A stretch of 64,000 nt of DNA from Escherichia phage chee24: sequence record NC_047885.1. The stretch is one strand, 5' to 3'. Position 1 is the stretch's first letter, and the number at the start of each line of letters is the position of its first letter. This document shows, piece by piece, positions 20,352 through 43,385 of this stretch. A program made the translations under genes and the position numbers. The notes under the pieces are model-generated. The model was not told the origin of the DNA and did no database searches. It worked only from the letters and a program-made list of their open reading frames with translations.

Positions 20352-20765
20352 TTAAACTAGTTCGACATGACCGCCATCATAGGTACCACGTTTTATTTCA
20401 TCGTGATAATCTCCCGAAGCATTCCAATCAGCACCAAAACGAAGTTTAATGCCTAGTTCTTTACCTGCTTGTTCAAAAGCCTTTTTAACTGCCCAAAATG
20501 CTTCTAAATCATTCCAATCAATCTTACCATTAATGTATGGAGCAAAATCAAGAGCATCCCCAGTAATATGCTTGCTTTTACTAGGATCTTTTAAGAATGA
20601 AGTACCATTAGCAATATTCTGGGCACTTTGTGCTACTGTACGAATACCCTGTACGATCGTGAAATCATAAGGAGATAATTCTAAAGCTCTACGAGCTACT
20701 TTTTGTAGCTCTGGCTTAACGGTAGCTAATTGTTTTTCGCTATTTTTACCAAATTTAAAACTCAT
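20352..20765 (-). CDS. lys: endolysin, L-alanyl-D-glutamate peptidase
   Basis: 137 aa; peptidase M15-like residues (H..D..H); size matches T5 endolysin; adjacent holin-like gene. Confidence 0.75.
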   Translation of the reverse strand: MSFKFGKNSEKQLATVKPELQKVARRALELSPYDFTIVQGIRTVAQSAQNIANGTSFLKDPSKSKHITGDALDFAPYINGKIDWNDLEAFWAVKKAFEQAGKELGIKLRFGADWNASGDYHDEIKRGTYDGGHVELV

Positions 20766-21418
20766 ATTGATCTACCTAAAGATCTCTGTTGTGGGGAACA
20801 GAGCTTTGTTAAATACTCGTTAAATTTCTCAGAATCGGCTGCATCTACAGGATTATCTTTCCAAGCAATACCAATATATCCAGCATAGATATTGTTTAGA
20901 TTGAAGTACGGACAAGTGTATATGTAATTAAAAGTAACGTTCTTAAACGCAGGTATATTTAACCCCATGTATTTATTTACTTTTACACTTAAATCCGATG
21001 CGTAGTTAAAGCCGTCTAAGTGACGTCTATATAGCTCAGACGTCTTATTTACCGCTTTATCGGCCAAGTCAGCCCTATCTAATTGCGCATTGCTTTCCCA
21101 TGCAATAATGTTAGAATAATCATTAATGGCATCGGGTTTATACTTGACTACAAAAACAGCATCCGCACCCGTTTGGGAAAAAAGCACCATGCTCTTTTCT
21201 CTAGCTACGTTAGGAAAATTACTTATCCTTTGAGTTTGAACATCCTGTAGAACCGCAGACGTGGAGAAAGTCTTTAAGAACGACATCACCTCACTAGTAT
21301 TACTAACAAATAAGAAAATAATGACAGCAACTAAGATAGTTAGCAGACGTTTAAGAAGCGATGCTGGATCTTTCGCTTCTTGGAGCAGTACCGTTAATAA
21401 TTGTAAGAACTTTTCCAA
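20762..21418 (-). CDS. putative holin (single-TM membrane protein)
   Basis: 218 aa; N-terminal TM helix; overlaps endolysin start by 4 nt. Confidence 0.5.
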   Translation of the reverse strand: MEKFLQLLTVLLQEAKDPASLLKRLLTILVAVIIFLFVSNTSEVMSFLKTFSTSAVLQDVQTQRISNFPNVAREKSMVLFSQTGADAVFVVKYKPDAINDYSNIIAWESNAQLDRADLADKAVNKTSELYRRHLDGFNYASDLSVKVNKYMGLNIPAFKNVTFNYIYTCPYFNLNNIYAGYIGIAWKDNPVDAADSEKFNEYLTKLCSPQQRSLGRSI

Positions 21419-21574: not shown

Positions 21575-22174
21575 TTACTCTTCGTTATGCTCCTCGGATT
21601 GAGGTAACTGGGCTTTATTATATTGCTCAGATCGATATTTTGCCAAGATTTCAATACGCTTATGGATTTCTTTGCTATCTAGATAGATATTTTTGTTGTC
21701 TTTTACCATCTCGTCGATTTCGTCTATAGAGAAGAACGGATAGTAGACATCTAGCATCATATCTTCTACGAACTTGTTGTAAGATTCATAAGCTTTCTTG
21801 ATTTCTTGACCCTTCTCACAGAATCCGCCAGAGAACGTGTGTCCCATTAGCGTAGCATGTGGATGTACTACCCATCCATGACAGGATAGGAAAATTGTGC
21901 AGTAAGCAGAAGCACTAGGACCAATCAGGTGTCCTATAACTGTTCCACGGCAATTAGCAATTAAGTTAGATAACTGTGCAGCAGTATCAACATAACCACC
22001 AGGGCCATTAATCATCAGATTAATTTCGTCGTCCTCATTTGCTTGCATAAGTACCATTGATAAATCACGGTATTCATCCGGCGGGCCTAATTCTTCATCA
22101 AAGAAAAAGGTATACTCATTAGATTGGCGAATGGAGTGAAACAGGTTAGTCTTTTCTTCTTTTTTATTAGTCAT
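21575..22174 (-). CDS. ClpP-like serine peptidase
   Basis: 199 aa; ClpP-family motif INGPGG plus Ser/His region. Confidence 0.6.
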   Translation of the reverse strand: MTNKKEEKTNLFHSIRQSNEYTFFFDEELGPPDEYRDLSMVLMQANEDDEINLMINGPGGYVDTAAQLSNLIANCRGTVIGHLIGPSASAYCTIFLSCHGWVVHPHATLMGHTFSGGFCEKGQEIKKAYESYNKFVEDMMLDVYYPFFSIDEIDEMVKDNKNIYLDSKEIHKRIEILAKYRSEQYNKAQLPQSEEHNEE

Positions 22175-37511: not shown

Positions 37512-38030
37512 TTAGAAATTTAGCTTCATAGCAAGAAAATTTTTCAAGTTTTCGGTAGACATCTCATCCACATCTACAGGAGAAACAAATCCATTTAATT
37601 GTCTAGCAAATTTTTCACCAGCAGGATCATTATCCCCAACAGCTACCAATTTAAAAGGTAGTAATTTCAATTGCTTTAACAACGCTTTTCCTGGAGAAGA
37701 ACCCAACATTGCCAGGGCTGGATAACCAGCGTTATGTAATGCTACGGCCTTAAATACAGATTCCGCAACCAATACTACTTTTTCATCCCCATTGAGAGTT
37801 TCCAGCCCCCATACACACTGTGTAGTAGAATAAGTAAAATACTTAGCTTCAAAAGGAGATTTACCATGACCTTTTGGAGCAGAAGGATTATAAGTCTGAT
37901 AGCCTCTCAACATCCCAGAGAAGTCATACAATGGGACTGTTAGCCATCCTTCCGGACTTAACCAGCAATGATATTTATCTGTATCAAACCCTCTAGATAA
38001 GAGATGTTCTGTTAGTTCATCAACAGTCAT
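37512..38030 (-). CDS. Toprim-like domain protein
   Basis: 172 aa; VVLVAES ... VAVGDNDPAGEKFARQL resembles Toprim acidic motifs; promoter at 38059-38087. Confidence 0.5.
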   Translation of the reverse strand: MTVDELTEHLLSRGFDTDKYHCWLSPEGWLTVPLYDFSGMLRGYQTYNPSAPKGHGKSPFEAKYFTYSTTQCVWGLETLNGDEKVVLVAESVFKAVALHNAGYPALAMLGSSPGKALLKQLKLLPFKLVAVGDNDPAGEKFARQLNGFVSPVDVDEMSTENLKNFLAMKLNF

Positions 38031-38232: not shown

Positions 38233-38294
38233 ATATGTTATGGATGAGTGATCAAAGAGACACACATTTTCTATATACTAGGAGGTGTCAAAAA

Positions 38295-39275
38295 ATGACA
38301 GAAGAAGTAGCTAAGAGTCCTGAAACCGTCGCTAGCGTAGCAGCAGAACTGCATCGTCACGAGGAATCAGATAAGAAAAAGTGGGAGAAAGTCAAAGCCT
38401 ACGAAGAAGAACATCGTGAACACGATGATAAAGATGAAGAAGATGACGATGATGAACATTGTCATAAATATGGAAAACATAAAATGCAAGAACCAGTAAA
38501 CGTATTTACTAATGGCTTCCCTGGCATGGGTGCATTCCCAGCTAACGCAAGTGCTTTCGGTGGAGAAGGTATGGGTCTATTCGGAGCTATCCTAATCGGT
38601 GCTCTATTAACAGGCGGATTTGGTGGTTTTGGTGGTTTTGGCCGTGGTGCTGGCGTTGCCGCTGAAGGGACTGCTGTGGACGCGATCCTTTCTAACCAAG
38701 ATACTGCAAGTATTCTAGCTGCAATCAATACTACTCGTACAGAAGCTAACCAGGGCACTGGGGCTGTTCTAAGCGCAGTAAACGGTGTGGGAGCTGCTCA
38801 AGCTGCTAGCACTCAGCAAGTTCTGACTACTATCTACGGTACAGGTGCTAATCTGTCAAACCAGATCTGTGCTGAAACTCGTAACGTTATTCAGGGTCAG
38901 TTCGATCTTTCTCGTCAGATGGATCAATCTTTCGCTGCTAACCAGATCGCACGTGCTCAAGATAAGTTTGACTCTGCTCAGATTGCTTTCCAGCAGTCTA
39001 TTCAGACCAATAACCAGTTTGCCGCTGTTCAGGCTCAGATGTGTGCTAACCAGAATGCTATAGAGCGTCAGCTTGCTGAATGTTGCTGTGAACTTCAGAC
39101 TGCGATCGCTGGTGTAACTACTGCGCGTATCCAGGACGAACTGAATGAATGCCGTCTGCGTGAAGCAATCGCTCAAGGTAGTGGTGCTAACGGTCAGGTA
39201 ATTAACCAAATCGCTGTAAGTCTTGGTGCTATCACTCAGACTCTGGCTGGTCTGCAGGCTAAACTGCCGGCTTAA
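38295..39275 (+). CDS. low-complexity protein: acidic N-terminus, Gly-rich hydrophobic segment, Gln/Ala-rich C-terminus
   Basis: 326 aa from ATG with AGGAGG RBS inside track ORF 38235-39275; consensus promoter at 38204-38232. Confidence 0.6.
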   Translation: MTEEVAKSPETVASVAAELHRHEESDKKKWEKVKAYEEEHREHDDKDEEDDDDEHCHKYGKHKMQEPVNVFTNGFPGMGAFPANASAFGGEGMGLFGAILIGALLTGGFGGFGGFGRGAGVAAEGTAVDAILSNQDTASILAAINTTRTEANQGTGAVLSAVNGVGAAQAASTQQVLTTIYGTGANLSNQICAETRNVIQGQFDLSRQMDQSFAANQIARAQDKFDSAQIAFQQSIQTNNQFAAVQAQMCANQNAIERQLAECCCELQTAIAGVTTARIQDELNECRLREAIAQGSGANGQVINQIAVSLGAITQTLAGLQAKLPA

Positions 39276-39296
39276 AATTAAGGGGAGGAGCCCATT

Positions 39297-39713
39297 ATGA
39301 GTAAATATGGTTTTGTAAACAACGGATTTAATCAACAAATGGGCTCCCAGCAGCCCGTTCCGGGTCTGGATAATCCTTACCTACAACAGTTGCAACAGCG
39401 TTTAGCAGAAGCGCAACAGATGCAGCAACAACTCCAGCAAAACCCTGGAAGTGTGAGTCCTATGCAAATGATGCAGCAAATGAGCGGGCAGTCGCAAATG
39501 CCTCAACAAATGCAGCAACAGGTGCCTCAGCAGCAAGTTCAGCAACAAACCCAACAACCGCAGGTTTCTGCGGAAGGACAGGCAGTACTAGCTCTTTTCG
39601 AAGATTTCGCAAAGACAGAGGATGGGAAACAGCTTGTATCACTTATGGGTAAGTTTAATAGCTTCTGCCAAAGCCAGGTTGCAAAAGCTCAAAATGGTGA
39701 TAATAACTCCTAA
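39297..39713 (+). CDS. glutamine-rich protein (138 aa)
   Basis: ORF with GGGGAGGAG RBS; second gene of rightward operon. Confidence 0.55.
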   Translation: MSKYGFVNNGFNQQMGSQQPVPGLDNPYLQQLQQRLAEAQQMQQQLQQNPGSVSPMQMMQQMSGQSQMPQQMQQQVPQQQVQQQTQQPQVSAEGQAVLALFEDFAKTEDGKQLVSLMGKFNSFCQSQVAKAQNGDNNS

Positions 39714-39722
39714 GGAGGAATT

Positions 39723-39917
39723 ATGTGTTGCAGAAAATCTGTTTCGTGCTGCCCAATGCCTGTAGCACGTTGTTGCTCTCCAGCAATGTTTACACAAATA
39801 CCGGCGTTCAATCCCTTTGCCTTTAAGCCTACTCTTATCCTGCCCCCTAGAGTAGATTTTCAGTCAAGATTGGCCTCCCGTATGGGTGGTTGCTGTAACA
39901 AGAGTATATGGTTCTAA
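39723..39917 (+). CDS. Cys-rich small protein (64 aa)
   Basis: ORF with AAGGAGG RBS; contains 8 Cys including CC pairs; followed by hairpin terminators. Confidence 0.5.
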   Translation: MCCRKSVSCCPMPVARCCSPAMFTQIPAFNPFAFKPTLILPPRVDFQSRLASRMGGCCNKSIWF

Positions 39918-39933
39918 AGAACCAATAATAAAA

Positions 39934-39968
39934 AGCCCCTAGTCGAAAGACTTAGGGGCTTTTCTCTT
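39934..39968 (+). terminator. rho-independent terminator (possibly bidirectional)
   Basis: Hairpin AGCCCCTAGTC..GACTTAGGGGCT flanked by AAAA upstream and TTTT downstream. Confidence 0.65.
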
Positions 39969-39984
39969 ATCTTAAATACAGAAA

Positions 39985-40016
39985 AGCCCTGCGCTCTCCA
40001 GGGAACGCAGGGCTTA
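39985..40016 (-). terminator. rho-independent terminator for leftward SPFH gene
   Basis: Hairpin AGCCCTGCG..CGCAGGGCT with T-run on minus strand. Confidence 0.6.
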
Positions 40017-40038: not shown

Positions 40039-40986
40039 TTACTTGTTACGCATATCCATAATCATCTGGCCATCATAACCAGTGCCAACCACAGTCTGCG
40101 GTACACCACCTTGATACTTCTGAGCACGAATCATTTCAACTTCTAGTTGCTTCCAGCGAATCATCTCAGGAGTAATGGTACGTTGCAGAGCAGCGTTAGC
40201 TTCAGCTTCTTTCTTAGCTGCATACAGTTTAGCATCTGCATCACGTTCGTTTGCAATAGCTTGGTTGTTACGAGCTTCACGATCTGCTTCTGCTTGTTTA
40301 ACCTTCTGCTGTGCTTCTTGTTCAACGCGAGCTAATTCAGCTTTCGCAGCATTAACTTGTTCTTCGCGAACTTTGGTATTCTGTACCTGTTCCATAATTA
40401 CCGGTGGCAATGTAATATCCTGAAGGAACACTTGCTTAACTGTGTAACCATAGGGGCGTGCATACTCTTCAACTTCCTGTTGAATTGCAGTTTGCAATTG
40501 TGCTTGAATTTTAGCATCAAACAAATCTTGTGCTTTAGGTACAGACTTACCAAACTCACGAATAGTAGACAGTAATTTTTCAGTTACATACTTATCTAGA
40601 GCCTGATCTTGAGTACCCGCATTAATACGGTTGATCGGTGCCTTAGAACCATCAAACTGCAACATAACAGTCAGGTCAACAGTGGATTTAAACTTATCCT
40701 GGCTAGGAACCTGAAGTTTATCTAATTTTACAGCAATATCTTTTGTACTAAAAGTATCGAAAGATGCAAATGGGTTTACAAGATGGAAACCAGGTAATAC
40801 TGGGTTAGGATCTACTTTACCTAGAAATGTTTGGGTTTTAACCGTACCATCAGAAACAATAGTATATGAATTAAAAGCTAGGATTAAACCTGCTAAACCA
40901 ACTACAGCACCAATACTCCAACGTTTAATAGTGCGAATTACTTTTTGCTCAGAAGTCAGTTCTTTCATATTTTTAGTATTAGACAT
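40039..40986 (-). CDS. SPFH/band-7 (prohibitin/HflC-like) membrane protein
   Basis: 315 aa; N-terminal TM helix, SPFH-like core, charged coiled-coil C-terminus. Confidence 0.6.
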   Translation of the reverse strand: MSNTKNMKELTSEQKVIRTIKRWSIGAVVGLAGLILAFNSYTIVSDGTVKTQTFLGKVDPNPVLPGFHLVNPFASFDTFSTKDIAVKLDKLQVPSQDKFKSTVDLTVMLQFDGSKAPINRINAGTQDQALDKYVTEKLLSTIREFGKSVPKAQDLFDAKIQAQLQTAIQQEVEEYARPYGYTVKQVFLQDITLPPVIMEQVQNTKVREEQVNAAKAELARVEQEAQQKVKQAEADREARNNQAIANERDADAKLYAAKKEAEANAALQRTITPEMIRWKQLEVEMIRAQKYQGGVPQTVVGTGYDGQMIMDMRNK

Positions 40987-41020
40987 ATATTTCCTTTGTT
41001 TTAGTTACAGTTAATAAAAT

Positions 41021-41095
41021 TGGCCGAGGTGACAGGATTCGAACCTGCATAAAGGAATTTAGAAGACTCCTGCCTCTCCCTTAGACTACACCCCG
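41021..41095 (-). tRNA. tRNA-Arg (TCT)
   Basis: Hand-folded; anticodon arm GGAGT-CTTCTAA-ATTCC; T-arm GCAGG-TTCGAAT-CCTGT. Confidence 0.65.
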
Positions 41096-41597
41096 TTTAA
41101 GTATTTTTAAGAACTCTCGTAAAAACTCTTAAAAATACAGACGATACCGGGAGAGTCATAAGTCTCACTCATTAAGTATTTCAAGACAAAATACAGTAAC
41201 GTCTATTATTTTCCAGTTTAAGTCAAGGTGACTTAGTGGTTATGTCCTGCGGTATACTGAGGACTAGGTTAGGTTAGGGTCATGACTCCCCACCTTTTTG
41301 CTGCTACTCAACAGGAGTTATCGCGAATTACCTGTGCTATTGTGCACCATTAGTGGCATCTCTCATGCCAGCATTTCCCACTTTGTGGATAGTTTGAAAA
41401 ACTACTCCGATATGGAGAAAGAACTTCACTATCCTAGAATACCTTCTAAAGTTCTTCTTTAGCCTGGACATAGTTAAATCGTAATAAAACTATTCAGCAG
41501 ACTGGTTGGTTAGTCTGGAACCAACTACCGCGTGGTTTAGGCAGTGCGCAACTAACCTCGGAAGCTTTTACATTAAAAGCACCAGTTATCCAGTTCT

Positions 41598-41670
41598 TAC
41601 CGACCGTAGGATTCGAACCTACATCTTCCACCAGTTACGGCTTGATAATACCGTTTTATACTAGATCGGC
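41598..41670 (-). other. tRNA-like element (acceptor and perfect T-arm; anticodon arm unresolved)
   Basis: T-arm GTAGG-TTCGAAT-CCTAC and acceptor GCCGATC/GGTCGGT; CCA not encoded. Confidence 0.35.
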
Positions 41671-41893
41671 AGTGTTACTACATAAGTGATTTCCACACCC
41701 CACTATCAGTAAATTAGAGAAGAGTTTAGGGGAGAGGTTTCAGACGCCCCATTTTACACGTTCTAGCCACTAACCGGGATTGCCGCCCCCTGTGTACTAG
41801 TTTTCCAACTAACCCACCGACTCTATTCAATGCGCTCCGGTTGGGATTCTGCACTCAGCGTAATCGGCTCGCTGTTCTCTAATTTATGAATAT

Positions 41894-41922
41894 ATTATAC
41901 AGAATTTATAAGCATTTAGCAA
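41894..41922 (-). promoter_or_regulatory. sigma70-type early promoter (-35 TTGCTA, -10 TATAAT) facing an ORF-free region
   Basis: ATTATA-N17-TAGCAA; downstream leftward region 41100-41880 has no ORF of 60 aa or more. Confidence 0.6.
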
Positions 41923-42612: not shown

Positions 42613-43080
42613 TTAAGTTTTAGTGACAACAGGCTTATAAAATGTATGTCCCTTAATCTTAGTTGTTTTCTTAAACTTCTTTGTCCAGTATGGTTTATCT
42701 TTACCACTATGGAAGTATAAAGCTCCATGTGTAGGATCTTGTGGTAAATCAACGTAGTATATCACTCTAGCTAAATTCTTGGCGGTTTGCCAAGCCTCAT
42801 CAGTTTTATCAACTTTTGGTCTCTTAGATACCCAAGAGAACTGGTTAGACTGATATACTACTTTACAGTAGGAATCTGGGAATTTACCGGAGTTTACACG
42901 GTTTTTAGTAACATGTGCAATCGCCGTCATTCCCTTTATGCCCTCACCACGACTTTCGAAATAGATATTTTTAGCAATGCAATCTATTTCTTTTGCATCG
43001 TGCGATGCCTGACTACTAAAGCTGAAGGTAAGGGCAGCTACTAAAAGCAAAGCTGCCTTCATTCTTTTTACTCCTGCCAA
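42613..43080 (-). CDS. secreted cell-wall hydrolase (SleB-like)
   Basis: 155 aa; signal peptide; SleB-like hydrolase signature. Confidence 0.6.
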   Translation of the reverse strand: MAGVKRMKAALLLVAALTFSFSSQASHDAKEIDCIAKNIYFESRGEGIKGMTAIAHVTKNRVNSGKFPDSYCKVVYQSNQFSWVSKRPKVDKTDEAWQTAKNLARVIYYVDLPQDPTHGALYFHSGKDKPYWTKKFKKTTKIKGHTFYKPVVTKT

Positions 43081-43385
43081 TCATATTCAACACGATTGGG
43101 ATTTTCTTTATACCCTAAGTCAAGCAAATCATTACGCATAGTTTGCTTAGCTACGGGATTCGAGGTTACTAGTACCACTTTCTTTGGTCTCTGCCCAAAT
43201 TCTAAGAGTAAACGAAGAATTTGATAACCTTCCATACCATCTACAGCCAAGTCATTATCCATATAAACAAAGTGGCCTGTGGTATCAGTTTTATTCAGAA
43301 ACTCGACAGCGGCTTCTGGGGTTCGAATGATAATGTCCATTCCATGAAGATTACGCACATCATCAATCAAAATATGAAAAGTCAT
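43068..43385 (-). CDS. receiver-like domain protein (105 aa)
   Basis: ORF; ILIDDV ... DGMEGYQIL resembles CheY-like receiver fold. Confidence 0.45.
   Translation of the reverse strand: MTFHILIDDVRNLHGMDIIIRTPEAAVEFLNKTDTTGHFVYMDNDLAVDGMEGYQILRLLLEFGQRPKKVVLVTSNPVAKQTMRNDLLDLGYKENPNRVEYDWQE

What the first reader, a model, noticed from the sequence alone, without database searches (positions are those of the whole stretch)
40039..40986. Phage-encoded SPFH/prohibitin-like membrane protein
A 315-aa protein has an N-terminal TM helix, an SPFH-like core and a long charged coiled coil, with its own terminator. SPFH proteins organise membrane microdomains and regulate membrane proteases. In a phage it could modulate host FtsH/HflKC or lysis timing.
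Basis: partly seen in the sequence, partly recalled or inferred. Interest (0 to 1): 0.4.

Follow-up and report, generated by a model that had tools for sequence, protein, structure and literature searches.

The report
T5-like phage SPFH membrane scaffold gene
This is the already-catalogued T5.080 gene of T5-like phages, a membrane-anchored prohibitin/HflK-like (SPFH) protein that probably builds a cage on the bacterial inner membrane. It is strongly conserved yet dispensable in the laboratory, and its actual job is still unknown.

Summary
Window 40039..40986 (minus strand) encodes a 315-aa protein with one N-terminal TM helix, an SPFH/Band_7 core (Pfam E=2e-17), a 76-residue charged helix and a strong terminator.

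The window is a T5-like phage and the gene is the ortholog of T5.080. The AlphaFold model aligns over its full length with every cage-forming SPFH protein (erlin, prohibitin, HflK/C, stomatin, QmcA). It has all canonical elements: TM, SPFH1/2, CC1, CC2 and a conserved C-terminal tail. Charge bias predicts N-in/C-out, which puts the SPFH domain in the periplasm as in HflK/C.

It is not an HflK/HflC ortholog, and it is not a lipoprotein despite the RefSeq/PHROG label, because it has no cysteine. It has no NfeD partner and lies about 19 kb from the lysis cassette.

The clade appears phage-restricted in every member sampled (T5-, T4- and T7-like phages). It is present in about 437 of 440 close T5 relatives and is under strong purifying selection (dN/dS 0.01–0.03). 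It is nevertheless dispensable: one natural isolate carries an internal deletion, and CRISPRi-ART scored it "Not Fit".

FtsH modulation and lysis timing remain untested guesses. Identical proteins are already annotated as SPFH in GenBank, so the finding is correct but already known. Interest is modest.

The parts
40039..40986 (-). Complete CDS (315 aa plus stop), the ortholog of T5.080. It encodes an SPFH/Band_7 membrane protein.
   Evidence: ORF list. Pfam Band_7 E=2e-17. PHROG_200 E=5.5e-86. T5.080 lies at the syntenic position in NC_005859. 100% identical protein in phage IrisVonRoten and 99.4% in JLBYU40, where it is annotated 'SPFH domain-containing protein'.
40921..40986 (-). aa 1-22: basic N-terminal tail (6 K/R, 2 D/E), predicted to be cytoplasmic.
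   Evidence: Charge count. The N-flank is richer in K/R than the C-flank in 107 of 115 close homologs.
40867..40920 (-). aa 23-40: the single hydrophobic transmembrane or signal-anchor segment.
   Evidence: Kyte-Doolittle maximum 1.79, with no other hydrophobic window above 0.9. AlphaFold helix aa 12-39.
40411..40866 (-). aa 41-192: SPFH1 and SPFH2 alpha/beta core.
   Evidence: Pfam Band_7 covers aa 52-225. AlphaFold strands and helices span aa 41-192 at pLDDT 79-94. Foldseek matches stomatin SPFH-domain crystal structures at rmsd 2.3-4 A.
40177..40404 (-). aa 195-270: CC1, one 76-residue charged helix. In solved SPFH cages this element forms the wall.
   Evidence: AlphaFold helix H195-270. 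About 38% of residues are charged. Full-length alignments to erlin, PHB and HflK/C chains. Architecture as described in PMC12624060.
40117..40170 (-). aa 273-290: CC2, a short helix. In solved SPFH cages this element forms the roof.
   Evidence: AlphaFold helix H273-290. W278, L281 and A288 are nearly invariant in the family.
40042..40116 (-). aa 291-315: conserved C-terminal tail (YQGGVPQTVVG...). It is disordered in the monomer model and is a candidate for the beta9/cap element.
   Evidence: pLDDT is below 50 for aa 293-315, yet G293, P296 and G301 are invariant and Y291, V295, T298, D311 and R313 are at least 90% conserved across 54 representatives.
40992..40996 (-). Shine-Dalgarno AAGGA, 5 nt upstream of the ATG.
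   Evidence: Read directly from the sequence.
39974..40015 (-). Intrinsic terminator of the gene: a 13-bp stem, a 6-nt loop and a U-rich tail. The T5 nick-site consensus GCGC (39991..39994) lies inside the stem.
   Evidence: Terminator scan. Fold energy -25 kcal/mol, z -4.56. T5 annotates a 'major DNA single-chain interruption' at T5 39746/7, which maps to window 39994/5.
39930..39963 (.). Second hairpin, a bidirectional terminator shared with the convergent T5.077-079 genes.
   Evidence: Folds on both strands at -21.3 and -22 kcal/mol, z about -5. Annotated in T5 as an 'efficient bidirectional rho-independent transcription terminator'.
41021..41095 (-). tRNA-Arg(TCT), immediately upstream and on the same strand. 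It is probably co-transcribed with the CDS.
   Evidence: ARAGORN. Rfam tRNA 49.3 bits. Only 34 nt separate it from the ATG.
41894..41922 (-). Sigma-70-like promoter (TTGCTA, 17-nt spacer, TATAAT) corresponding to T5 early promoter P16-17. It is the likely start of the rnaX / tRNA-Arg / SPFH transcript.
   Evidence: Promoter scan, 10 of 12 matches. T5 annotation of P16-17 upstream of rnaX. The assignment to this transcript is an inference.

Best explanation
The gene encodes an accessory, early-region phage protein of the SPFH (stomatin/prohibitin/flotillin/HflK-C) superfamily.

Proposed mechanism:
1. It is transcribed from an early promoter together with rnaX and tRNA-Arg. This is inferred from the T5 annotation.
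2. It inserts into the host inner membrane through its single N-terminal helix, with the basic tail in the cytoplasm (N-in/C-out). This places the SPFH domains on the periplasmic leaflet. This step is predicted.
3. Like every solved full-length SPFH protein, it oligomerises into a closed ring or cage. The SPFH domains sit on the membrane, the CC1 helices form the wall, and CC2 plus the conserved C-terminal tail form the roof. With a single gene, the cage would be a homo-oligomer. This step is inferred from the fold.
4. The cage fences off a patch of inner membrane and whatever client proteins sit in it.

The most likely client class, by analogy with HflK/C and prohibitin, is a membrane protease such as host FtsH. 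Caging it would re-tune membrane-protein turnover during infection. This last step is speculative: I put it at about 0.25, compared with about 0.95 for 'SPFH membrane scaffold' and about 0.7 each for 'periplasm-facing' and 'cage-forming'.

The function is conditionally useful rather than essential.
For: SPFH identity:
- Pfam Band_7 E=2e-17.
- PDB sequence hits to QmcA (E 2e-6, or 3e-7 with a profile) and to prohibitin-2 and -1.

Complete cage architecture:
- AlphaFold model at pLDDT 82 shows TM 12-39, an alpha/beta core 41-192, helix 195-270, helix 273-290 and a tail.
- Foldseek alignments of 270-317 columns match erlin1/2 (E 1e-14), PHB1/2, HflK/C (7vhq, 7wi3, 9cz2), stomatin, QmcA and flotillin.
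- These are the same elements described for solved cages (PMC12624060).
- The C-terminal tail is invariant at G293, P296 and G301 although it is disordered in the monomer model, as expected for an element that folds only in the oligomer.

Topology:
- 6 K/R precede the TM and 2 follow it.
- The same bias holds in 107 of 115 close homologs.

Single gene with no partner:
- Neighbouring ORFs show no NfeD or second SPFH.
- Contexts differ between T5-, T4- and T7-like phages.

Early, non-structural role:
- The gene sits in the tRNA/early region downstream of a T5 early promoter.
- In T7-like genomes it lies among DNA polymerase, primase and kinase genes.

Functional importance:
- dN/dS is 0.01-0.03.
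- It is present at >=80% identity in 437 records, against 440 for the A1 core gene.

Dispensability:
- Phage NG_S8 has an in-frame deletion of aa 18-277.
- T5.080 was scored 'Not Fit' with 7 guides in CRISPRi-ART (PMC11879866 supplement).

FtsH analogy: HflK/C and PHB1/2 have the same orientation and both bind FtsH-type AAA proteases (PMC12624060).
Against: - No oligomer was modelled, and no experiment exists on this protein or any phage ortholog.
- Topology rests on the positive-inside rule alone.
- The best sequence match among solved structures is QmcA. By my recollection of Chiba et al. 2006, not checked here, QmcA faces the cytoplasm.
- The protein is not an HflK/HflC ortholog and is only 15-20% identical to any solved SPFH protein, so FtsH binding cannot be transferred by homology.
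- Knockdown has no fitness effect on laboratory E. coli, so any effect on an essential protease like FtsH must be subtle or condition-dependent.
- In more distant family members the charge bias is weaker: 70 have more K/R on the N side, 26 have more on the C side and 24 are tied.
Confidence: 0.55

Rival explanations
1. Same periplasm-facing SPFH cage, but the client is not FtsH. The cage would serve phage-phage or phage-defence conflict. It could sequester inner-membrane proteins that other phages need for DNA entry (superinfection exclusion). Alternatively it could shield the membrane from envelope-sensing or membrane-depolarising defence effectors.
For: The gene has the typical signature of conflict genes. 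It is an early-region accessory gene, near-universal in its clade, under strong purifying selection, and yet has no fitness effect on K-12 and can be lost naturally. It has spread across unrelated virulent phage families. The predicted periplasmic face is where incoming phage DNA and envelope sensors act.
Against: There is no match to any PADLOC defence-system model. That library holds defence-system proteins rather than anti-defence proteins, so the negative is weak. No known exclusion or anti-defence protein has an SPFH fold, to my knowledge. There is no conserved neighbour that would hint at a target.
Confidence: 0.2
2. Lysis-timing factor. The cage corrals or stabilises holin or antiholin molecules in the inner membrane, delaying or sharpening holin triggering.
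For: In Pseudotevenvirus GAP161 the gene directly follows rI (the lysis-inhibition antiholin) and rI.-1. In an Aeromonas T4-like phage it lies downstream of tk, in the same region. The holin of the T5-like phage in this window belongs to the T4 T-holin family (Pfam Phage_holin_T, E=5e-113). By established T4 biology, the large periplasmic domain of T holin is where RI acts. A periplasm-facing cage could therefore meet it.
Against: In T5 the gene is about 19 kb from the holin, endolysin and spanin genes and lies in a different transcription unit. T7-like carriers place it among DNA-metabolism genes. The site after rI.-1 is a variable region where unrelated ORFs such as NMN adenylyltransferase are also inserted. 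The 87-aa ORF upstream in the Aeromonas phage has no signal or TM segment and does not look like RI. No plaque or fitness phenotype was seen on knockdown.
Confidence: 0.12
3. Cytoplasm-facing (N-out/C-in) QmcA-like SPFH cage, possibly working with the phage's own ClpP-fold protein (T5.042 ortholog) in the way stomatin works with the NfeD protease.
For: QmcA is the best sequence hit among solved structures. The window encodes a soluble ClpP-fold protein at 21575..22174 (Pfam CLP_protease, E=5e-8) with a weak NfeD1b_N resemblance (E=1e-3, below cut-off).
Against: The charge bias is strong and family-wide: the 22-residue N-tail carries 6 K/R and would have to be translocated. No NfeD gene lies next to the SPFH gene. 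The ClpP-like gene is 18 kb away, and its distribution follows Demerecviridae as a whole, plus Pseudomonas and Rheinheimera phages. It is not seen in the T4-like SPFH carriers (Aeromonas, Enterobacter and Cronobacter names are absent from its leading organism groups and spread rows, and its Klebsiella hits are ~113-kb phages), while SPFH is rare in Vibrio T5-likes. By fold, erlin and PHB, which are N-in with an exoplasmic domain, rank above QmcA.
Confidence: 0.1
4. A lipoprotein, as labelled in RefSeq T5 (YP_006908) and in PHROG_200.
For: Only the database labels themselves support this.
Against: The protein contains no cysteine at all. 49 of the 54 family representatives have none. Without a lipobox cysteine, lipidation is impossible.
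Confidence: 0.01

Closest known systems
Phage SPFH/Band 7 ORFs already catalogued: T5.080, RB43ORF139c, 44RRORF098c, Aeh1ORF064c and GAP161_127 (PHROG_200)
   Same: These belong to the same family. T5.080 is the ortholog, differing at about 0.5% of non-synonymous sites (pN 0.005). The RB43/GAP161 group is 77-80% identical and the Aeromonas group about 60%. The T5 record itself cites Aeh1ORF064c and 44RRORF098c. The 2006 T4-like genome paper lists them as Pfam SPFH hits (PMC1524935).
   Different: Nothing of substance differs. The copy in this window is simply another member, and none of these proteins has an experimentally assigned function.
E. coli HflK/HflC-FtsH complex
   Same: Both have an N-terminal TM anchor, SPFH1/2, CC1, CC2 and a C-terminal cap. 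The predicted N-in/periplasmic orientation is shared. Structural alignments cover 287-314 columns with E values between 1e-8 and 3e-12.
   Different: The phage has one gene rather than a heterodimeric pair. Identity is 17-19%. No HflK or HflC NCBIfam model matches, and no HflK/C chain scores E<1 in sequence searches. It lacks HflK's long cytoplasmic N-terminal region (my recollection). FtsH binding is untested.
Mitochondrial prohibitin PHB1/PHB2 and ER erlin1/2 cages
   Same: These are the best structural matches (erlin E 1e-14, PHB about 4e-13 to 2e-12). PHB2 is the second-best sequence hit (E 1e-4). They share the 'N-terminal TM helix with the domain on the exoplasmic side' layout and the four-layer cap logic (PMC12624060).
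   Different: They are eukaryotic hetero-oligomers with 11 or 13 heterodimers. Identity is 14-19%. Erlin's CC1 is 101 residues, against 76 here.
E. coli QmcA-YbbJ (stomatin-type SPFH with NfeD)
   Same: QmcA is the best sequence-level hit among solved structures (E 2e-6, or 3e-7 with a profile). It forms a homo-oligomeric cage: 26 QmcA chains in entry 8z5g.
   Different: QmcA's TM begins at residue 1, with the basic residues after it (alignment). It faces the cytoplasm (my recollection of Chiba et al. 2006). It has an NfeD partner gene, and none is present here.
SPFH/Band 7 proteins of other viruses (Vibrio phage pVa5, Rhizobium phage Pasto, giant viruses such as Tupanvirus, Marseillevirus and Pandoravirus)
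   Same: They share the fold and, for several, the full-length architecture (BFVD E values 1e-16 to 1e-12). All are of unknown function (PMC7760394, PMC8540360, PMC10269572).
   Different: Identity is only 14-22%. They represent separate lineages of the superfamily.

Membership tests
SPFH / Band 7 superfamily (Pfam PF01145) | Significant match to the Band_7 profile, above the curated cut-off. | tested here: met
   64.2 bits against a cut-off of 23.6, E=2e-17, aa 52-225.
SPFH / Band 7 superfamily (Pfam PF01145) | SPFH alpha/beta fold followed by long CC1 and CC2 helices and a membrane anchor. | tested here: met
   AlphaFold model at pLDDT 82. Full-length Foldseek matches to erlin, PHB, HflK/C, stomatin, QmcA and flotillin at probability 1.00.
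SPFH / Band 7 superfamily (Pfam PF01145) | Assembly into a large ring- or cage-shaped oligomer on a membrane. | not testable with these tools
   Only single-chain prediction was available. The strictly conserved but monomer-disordered C-terminal tail is consistent with oligomerisation but is not proof.
HflK / HflC (FtsH modulator) | Sequence membership in the HflK or HflC equivalog families. | tested here: not met
   No NCBIfam model matched at E<=1. HflK/C chains are absent from PDB sequence hits at E<=1, both with the single sequence and with the family profile.
HflK / HflC (FtsH modulator) | Two paralogous subunits encoded together that form heterodimers. | tested here: not met
   There is a single SPFH gene and no second Band_7 ORF among the neighbours. 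The gene is also solitary in the T4-like and T7-like contexts.
HflK / HflC (FtsH modulator) | N-in/C-out topology with a periplasmic SPFH domain. | tested here: inconclusive
   The positive-inside bias (6 versus 2 K/R, and 107 of 115 homologs) predicts this topology. There is no experimental mapping.
HflK / HflC (FtsH modulator) | Physical complex with FtsH and modulation of its proteolysis. | not testable with these tools
   This needs co-purification or substrate-stability assays.
Stomatin/QmcA-NfeD pairs | An adjacent NfeD-family gene in the same operon. | tested here: not met
   No NfeD hit in flanking ORFs. The only NfeD-like signal in the window is a weak sub-threshold hit in a ClpP-fold ORF 18 kb away, and that ORF does not co-occur with SPFH across lineages.
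Bacterial lipoprotein (the label carried by RefSeq T5.080 and PHROG_200) | A lipobox with an invariant cysteine at the end of the signal peptide. | tested here: not met
   The protein has zero cysteines, and 49 of 54 family representatives have none.
PHROG_200 (phage protein family) | Full-length match to the PHROG profile. | tested here: met
   E=5.5e-86, aa 4-314.

The most novel reading that the evidence does not exclude
This may be a phage-restricted, self-sufficient (single-gene, homo-oligomeric) SPFH nanocage. Virulent phages of at least three unrelated families (T5-, T4- and T7-like) would deploy it early in infection on the periplasmic face of the inner membrane. There it would wall off a specific host membrane machine, either FtsH or a defence or DNA-entry component. 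If so, it is a viral 'membrane-caging' host-takeover or conflict factor, a mechanism not yet described for any phage.
Probability: 0.2. Interest if true: 0.65.

Novelty: already known. Interest (0 to 1): 0.3.

Why it matters
The existence of the gene is old news. T5.080 was annotated in 2004-2005, SPFH ORFs in T4-like phages were listed in 2006, and several GenBank records already call this exact protein 'SPFH domain-containing'.

What remains open is why strictly virulent phages keep a prohibitin/HflK-like cage protein under such strong purifying selection when it is dispensable in the laboratory. SPFH cages have only recently been solved (2022-2026), and their cellular roles are still debated. 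A single-gene phage version expressed at a defined time in infection could be a simple model for what such cages do to their clients. It might also reveal a new way for phages to manipulate the host envelope.

A practical point: the 'lipoprotein' label propagated through RefSeq and PHROGs is wrong and should be corrected.

Tried and rejected
1. Lipoprotein label (RefSeq, PHROG_200). Rejected: the protein has no cysteine.

2. HflK/HflC orthology. Rejected: no NCBIfam hit and no HflK/C hit in PDB sequence searches.

3. Defence-system relative. PADLOC gave no hit.

4. NfeD or another conserved partner next to the gene. None was found in T5-like, T4-like or T7-like contexts.

5. The phage ClpP-fold protein (21575..22174) as an NfeD-type partner. 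Rejected as an obligate partner because its distribution across lineages does not match that of the SPFH gene.

6. Search for a cellular origin. The 'bacterial' relatives I sampled turned out to be phage. The Bacterioplanoides protein lies in a T7-like prophage, and the Cetobacterium 'MAG' contig is a 41.7-kb T7-like genome. Two further contigs look like phage. No cellular donor was identified.

7. Recent transfer between T5-like and T4-like phages. Rejected despite 77-80% amino-acid identity: synonymous sites are saturated, and GC content has adjusted to each genome (0.39 versus 0.46).

8. Is the small ORF upstream in the Aeromonas phage an RI homolog? It has no signal or TM segment, so probably not.

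9. Literature searches for T5.080 or for phage SPFH function. They found only annotations and speculation. The PNAS 2026 paper on T5 does not mention the gene. HIDEN-SEQ did not include a T5-like phage.

10. Rfam on the upstream 'rnaX' region. It found only tRNA-like matches.
Full report
**What is there.**
- The window is a T5-like phage. The 3.5 kb around the finding is 100% identical to 'Bacteriophage T5-like pork27' (MF431731) at essentially the same coordinates. The window carries 26 tRNA genes on the minus strand.
- The ORF at 40039..40986 exists, on the minus strand, and encodes 315 aa. A good AAGGA ribosome-binding site lies 5 nt before the ATG.
- It is the ortholog of T5.080 (NC_005859 39791..40738) in the same gene order. 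Reading along the minus strand: promoter P16-17, the stable RNA 'rnaX', tRNA-Arg, the gene, its terminators, and then the convergent genes T5.077-079.

- TM helix: there is one hydrophobic segment at aa ~23-40 and no other.
- SPFH core: Pfam Band_7 scores E=2e-17, 64 bits against a 23.6-bit cut-off.
- Long charged helix: AlphaFold (54-sequence alignment, mean pLDDT 82) gives one continuous helix aa 195-270 and a second helix aa 273-290. About 38% of residues 205-290 are charged.
- Own terminator: a 13-bp stem at 40015..39984 with a U-rich tail folds at -25 kcal/mol, z = -4.6. A second, bidirectional hairpin lies at 39930..39963.
- The one thing the gene lacks is its own promoter. Only 34 nt separate it from tRNA-Arg, so it is most likely the 3' cistron of the rnaX / tRNA-Arg transcript. 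This is an inference.

**What kind of SPFH protein it is.**
- The model aligns over its full length (270-317 columns, probability 1.00) with all cage-forming SPFH proteins. In order of E-value these are erlin1/2 (1e-14), prohibitin 1/2, HflK/C, stomatin, QmcA, flotillin and the major vault protein.
- Its element order is TM, SPFH1/2, CC1, CC2, C-terminal tail. That is the order described for solved cages, where CC1 helices form the wall and CC2 plus a beta-strand layer form the roof (PMC12624060).
- The last 25 residues are disordered in the monomer model, yet they contain invariant G293, P296 and G301 and several residues conserved at 90% or more across 54 representatives. This is what one expects of a segment that folds only in the assembled cap.
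- By sequence the nearest solved relatives are QmcA (E 2e-6, or 3e-7 with a profile) and prohibitin-2 (1e-4). HflK and HflC do not reach E=1, and no NCBIfam model matches. It is therefore a member of the SPFH superfamily but not an HflK/HflC ortholog.
- The 'lipoprotein' label in RefSeq and PHROG_200 is wrong. The protein has no cysteine, and 49 of 54 family representatives have none.

**Topology.**
- The 22 residues before the TM segment carry 6 K/R, and the 22 after it carry 2.
- The same bias is seen in 107 of 115 close homologs.
- By the positive-inside rule the N-terminus stays in the cytoplasm and the SPFH domain is exported. This holds whether the helix is a signal anchor or, less likely, a cleaved signal peptide.
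- That is the orientation of HflK/C, prohibitin and erlin. From memory, it is the opposite of QmcA.
- This is a prediction, not a measurement.

**Distribution and evolution.**
- tblastn finds the protein in 724 phage records. E. coli and Salmonella T5-likes are 90-100% identical. Klebsiella, Enterobacter and Cronobacter phages of ~175 kb, of which the one inspected (GAP161) is a T4-like Pseudotevenvirus, are 73-79% identical. Aeromonas T4-like phages are about 60%.
- Matches at >=80% identity occur in 437 records, against 440 for the T5 A1 core gene. The gene is therefore near-universal in this clade.
- A profile search of 1.8 billion cluster representatives finds 327 clusters at E<=1e-10.
- Every more distant member whose context I inspected is phage-borne. 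Two are in T7-like genomes, among DNA polymerase, primase and kinase genes. One of those two is a prophage labelled 'Bacterioplanoides'. Two more are on phage-like contigs.
- Within Tequintavirus dN/dS is 0.01-0.03. Between T5-like and T4-like copies the synonymous sites are saturated, and GC content matches each genome. The high amino-acid identity across families therefore reflects constraint, not recent transfer.
- Structure search against viral proteins shows that SPFH proteins are common in phages and giant viruses, and nearly all of the named hits are annotated as such.

**Dispensability.**
- Epseptimavirus NG_S8 carries an in-frame deletion that fuses aa 1-17 to aa 278-315, removing the TM, the SPFH core and CC1.
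- The genome-wide CRISPRi-ART screen of T5 scored T5.080 'Not Fit' with 7 guides (PMC11879866 supplementary files 8 and 16).
- The gene is thus a strongly conserved but conditionally useful accessory gene.

**Context and partners.**
- No NfeD or second SPFH gene lies nearby.
- T5's holin, endolysin and spanin genes are about 19 kb away.
- In Pseudotevenvirus GAP161 the gene follows rI and rI.-1. In an Aeromonas phage it follows tk and is followed by a pilin-like ORF and a true lipoprotein.
- The holin of the T5-like phage in this window belongs to the T4 T-holin family. This keeps a lysis-related role alive as a minor rival.
- A ClpP-fold ORF (21575..22174) with a weak NfeD-like signal was considered as a partner. 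It was rejected because its distribution across lineages differs from that of the SPFH gene.

**Mechanism.**
- Best-supported: the protein is made early and inserts N-in/C-out. It self-assembles into a homo-oligomeric cage on the periplasmic face of the inner membrane and fences in membrane clients.
- Shown here: the family, the fold, the architecture, the conservation and the dispensability.
- Predicted: the orientation.
- Inferred: cage formation and early co-transcription.
- Speculative: the client. FtsH is the most likely single candidate, because the two SPFH cages of the same orientation with known partners (HflK/C and prohibitin) both hold FtsH-type proteases. I rate this at only about 0.25.
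- Rivals: a conflict role such as exclusion or anti-defence (0.2), lysis timing (0.12), and a cytoplasm-facing QmcA-like cage (0.1).

**Novelty and verdict.**
- The literature and databases already record this gene as an SPFH/Band 7 protein.
- Papers that mention phage SPFH genes only speculate about HflKC/FtsH. No functional study was found.
- Its functional suggestions remain untested and are at best weakly supported.

Noticed in passing
window 41096..41900 (minus strand), especially 41597..41671: The stretch between the promoter and tRNA-Arg corresponds to T5 'rnaX', a ~720-nt stable RNA of unknown function. Inside it, ARAGORN calls a tRNA with the odd anticodon ACT ('tRNA-Ser'), and Rfam's tRNA model scores 34.5 bits against a gathering score of 29. 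Other records call it 'tRNA-OTHER'. It may be a degenerate or non-canonical tRNA embedded in a longer stable RNA that is co-transcribed with the SPFH gene.
   Followed up: partly
window 39991..39995 (inside the terminator stem 39984..40015): T5 annotates one of its 'major DNA single-chain interruptions' (nick consensus Pu-pGCGC) at T5 39746/7, which maps to window 39994/5. The GCGC lies inside the G+C stem of the SPFH gene's terminator, so the same sequence would serve as both nick site and RNA hairpin.
   Followed up: partly
window 38235..39917 (plus strand; orthologs of T5.077, T5.078 and T5.079): A convergent three-gene module has no Pfam match. The first gene encodes a 346-aa protein with an acidic, His-rich N-terminus, a Gly-rich hydrophobic stretch (GLFGAILIGALLTGGFGGFGGFG) and a Q/A-rich remainder. 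The second encodes a 138-aa protein very rich in glutamine. The third encodes a 64-aa peptide with four CC pairs. All three were 'Not Fit' in CRISPRi-ART and appear to be missing in phage NG_S8.
   Followed up: no
window 21575..22174 (minus strand): A soluble ClpP-fold protein (Pfam CLP_protease E=5e-8, with a weak NfeD1b_N hit) is encoded immediately upstream of the holin gene on the same (minus) strand. It is widespread in Demerecviridae, including Vibrio phages, and also occurs in Pseudomonas and Rheinheimera phages. Its role outside head maturation is unclear.
   Followed up: partly
window 20762..21418 (minus strand): The holin of the T5-like phage in this window is a clear member of the T4 T-holin family (Pfam Phage_holin_T, E=4.8e-113), although T5 and T4 are otherwise unrelated.
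   Followed up: no
window 42613..43385 (minus strand): Two adjacent early-region ORFs stand out. One is a 155-aa Hydrolase_2 (SleB-type cell-wall hydrolase) with an N-terminal signal-peptide-like sequence, separate from the phage's main endolysin. The other is a 105-aa protein matching the 'cyclic-phosphate processing receiver domain' cREC_REC (E=1.4e-14). A Hydrolase_2 gene also sits in the early region of the T7-like phage that carries an SPFH homolog (L007 2062..2481).
   Followed up: no
L005 (LC788711, phage NG_S8) 3750..4129: This natural T5-like isolate has an in-frame SPFH deletion that joins ...KVIR to WKQLEV... (aa 18-277 lost). It also has an unrelated 66-aa ORF inserted between tRNA-Arg and the remnant.
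   Followed up: yes
L004 (Aeromonas phage 60AhydR15PP) 6014..6862: Directly downstream of the SPFH homolog are two envelope-directed ORFs. One is a 79-aa ORF with a type IV pilin-like N-terminal motif (GFTLIELMV). The other is a 202-aa protein with a genuine lipobox (LSGC). Together they form a small envelope-directed gene cluster that is absent from T5-like phages.
   Followed up: no
hits H83 (OR847290, 'Listeria phage LM 4-11-1', 3967 bp) and H70 (OR845064, 'Salmonella phage S.Ent 1-35-3', 2650 bp): Very short GenBank 'phage' records are 93-100% identical to T5-like genes, including one attributed to a Listeria phage. These are likely fragmentary or misattributed records, which would explain the 'Listeria' entries in the BLAST summaries.
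   Followed up: no
PMC11879866 supplementary file 16 (T5.076, the ortholog of window 37512..38030): The Toprim/primase-like 172-aa ORF next to the locus is listed there as 'anti-defense, Known, Semi-Fit'. GenBank and PHROGs call it a DNA primase. The two annotations disagree.
   Followed up: no
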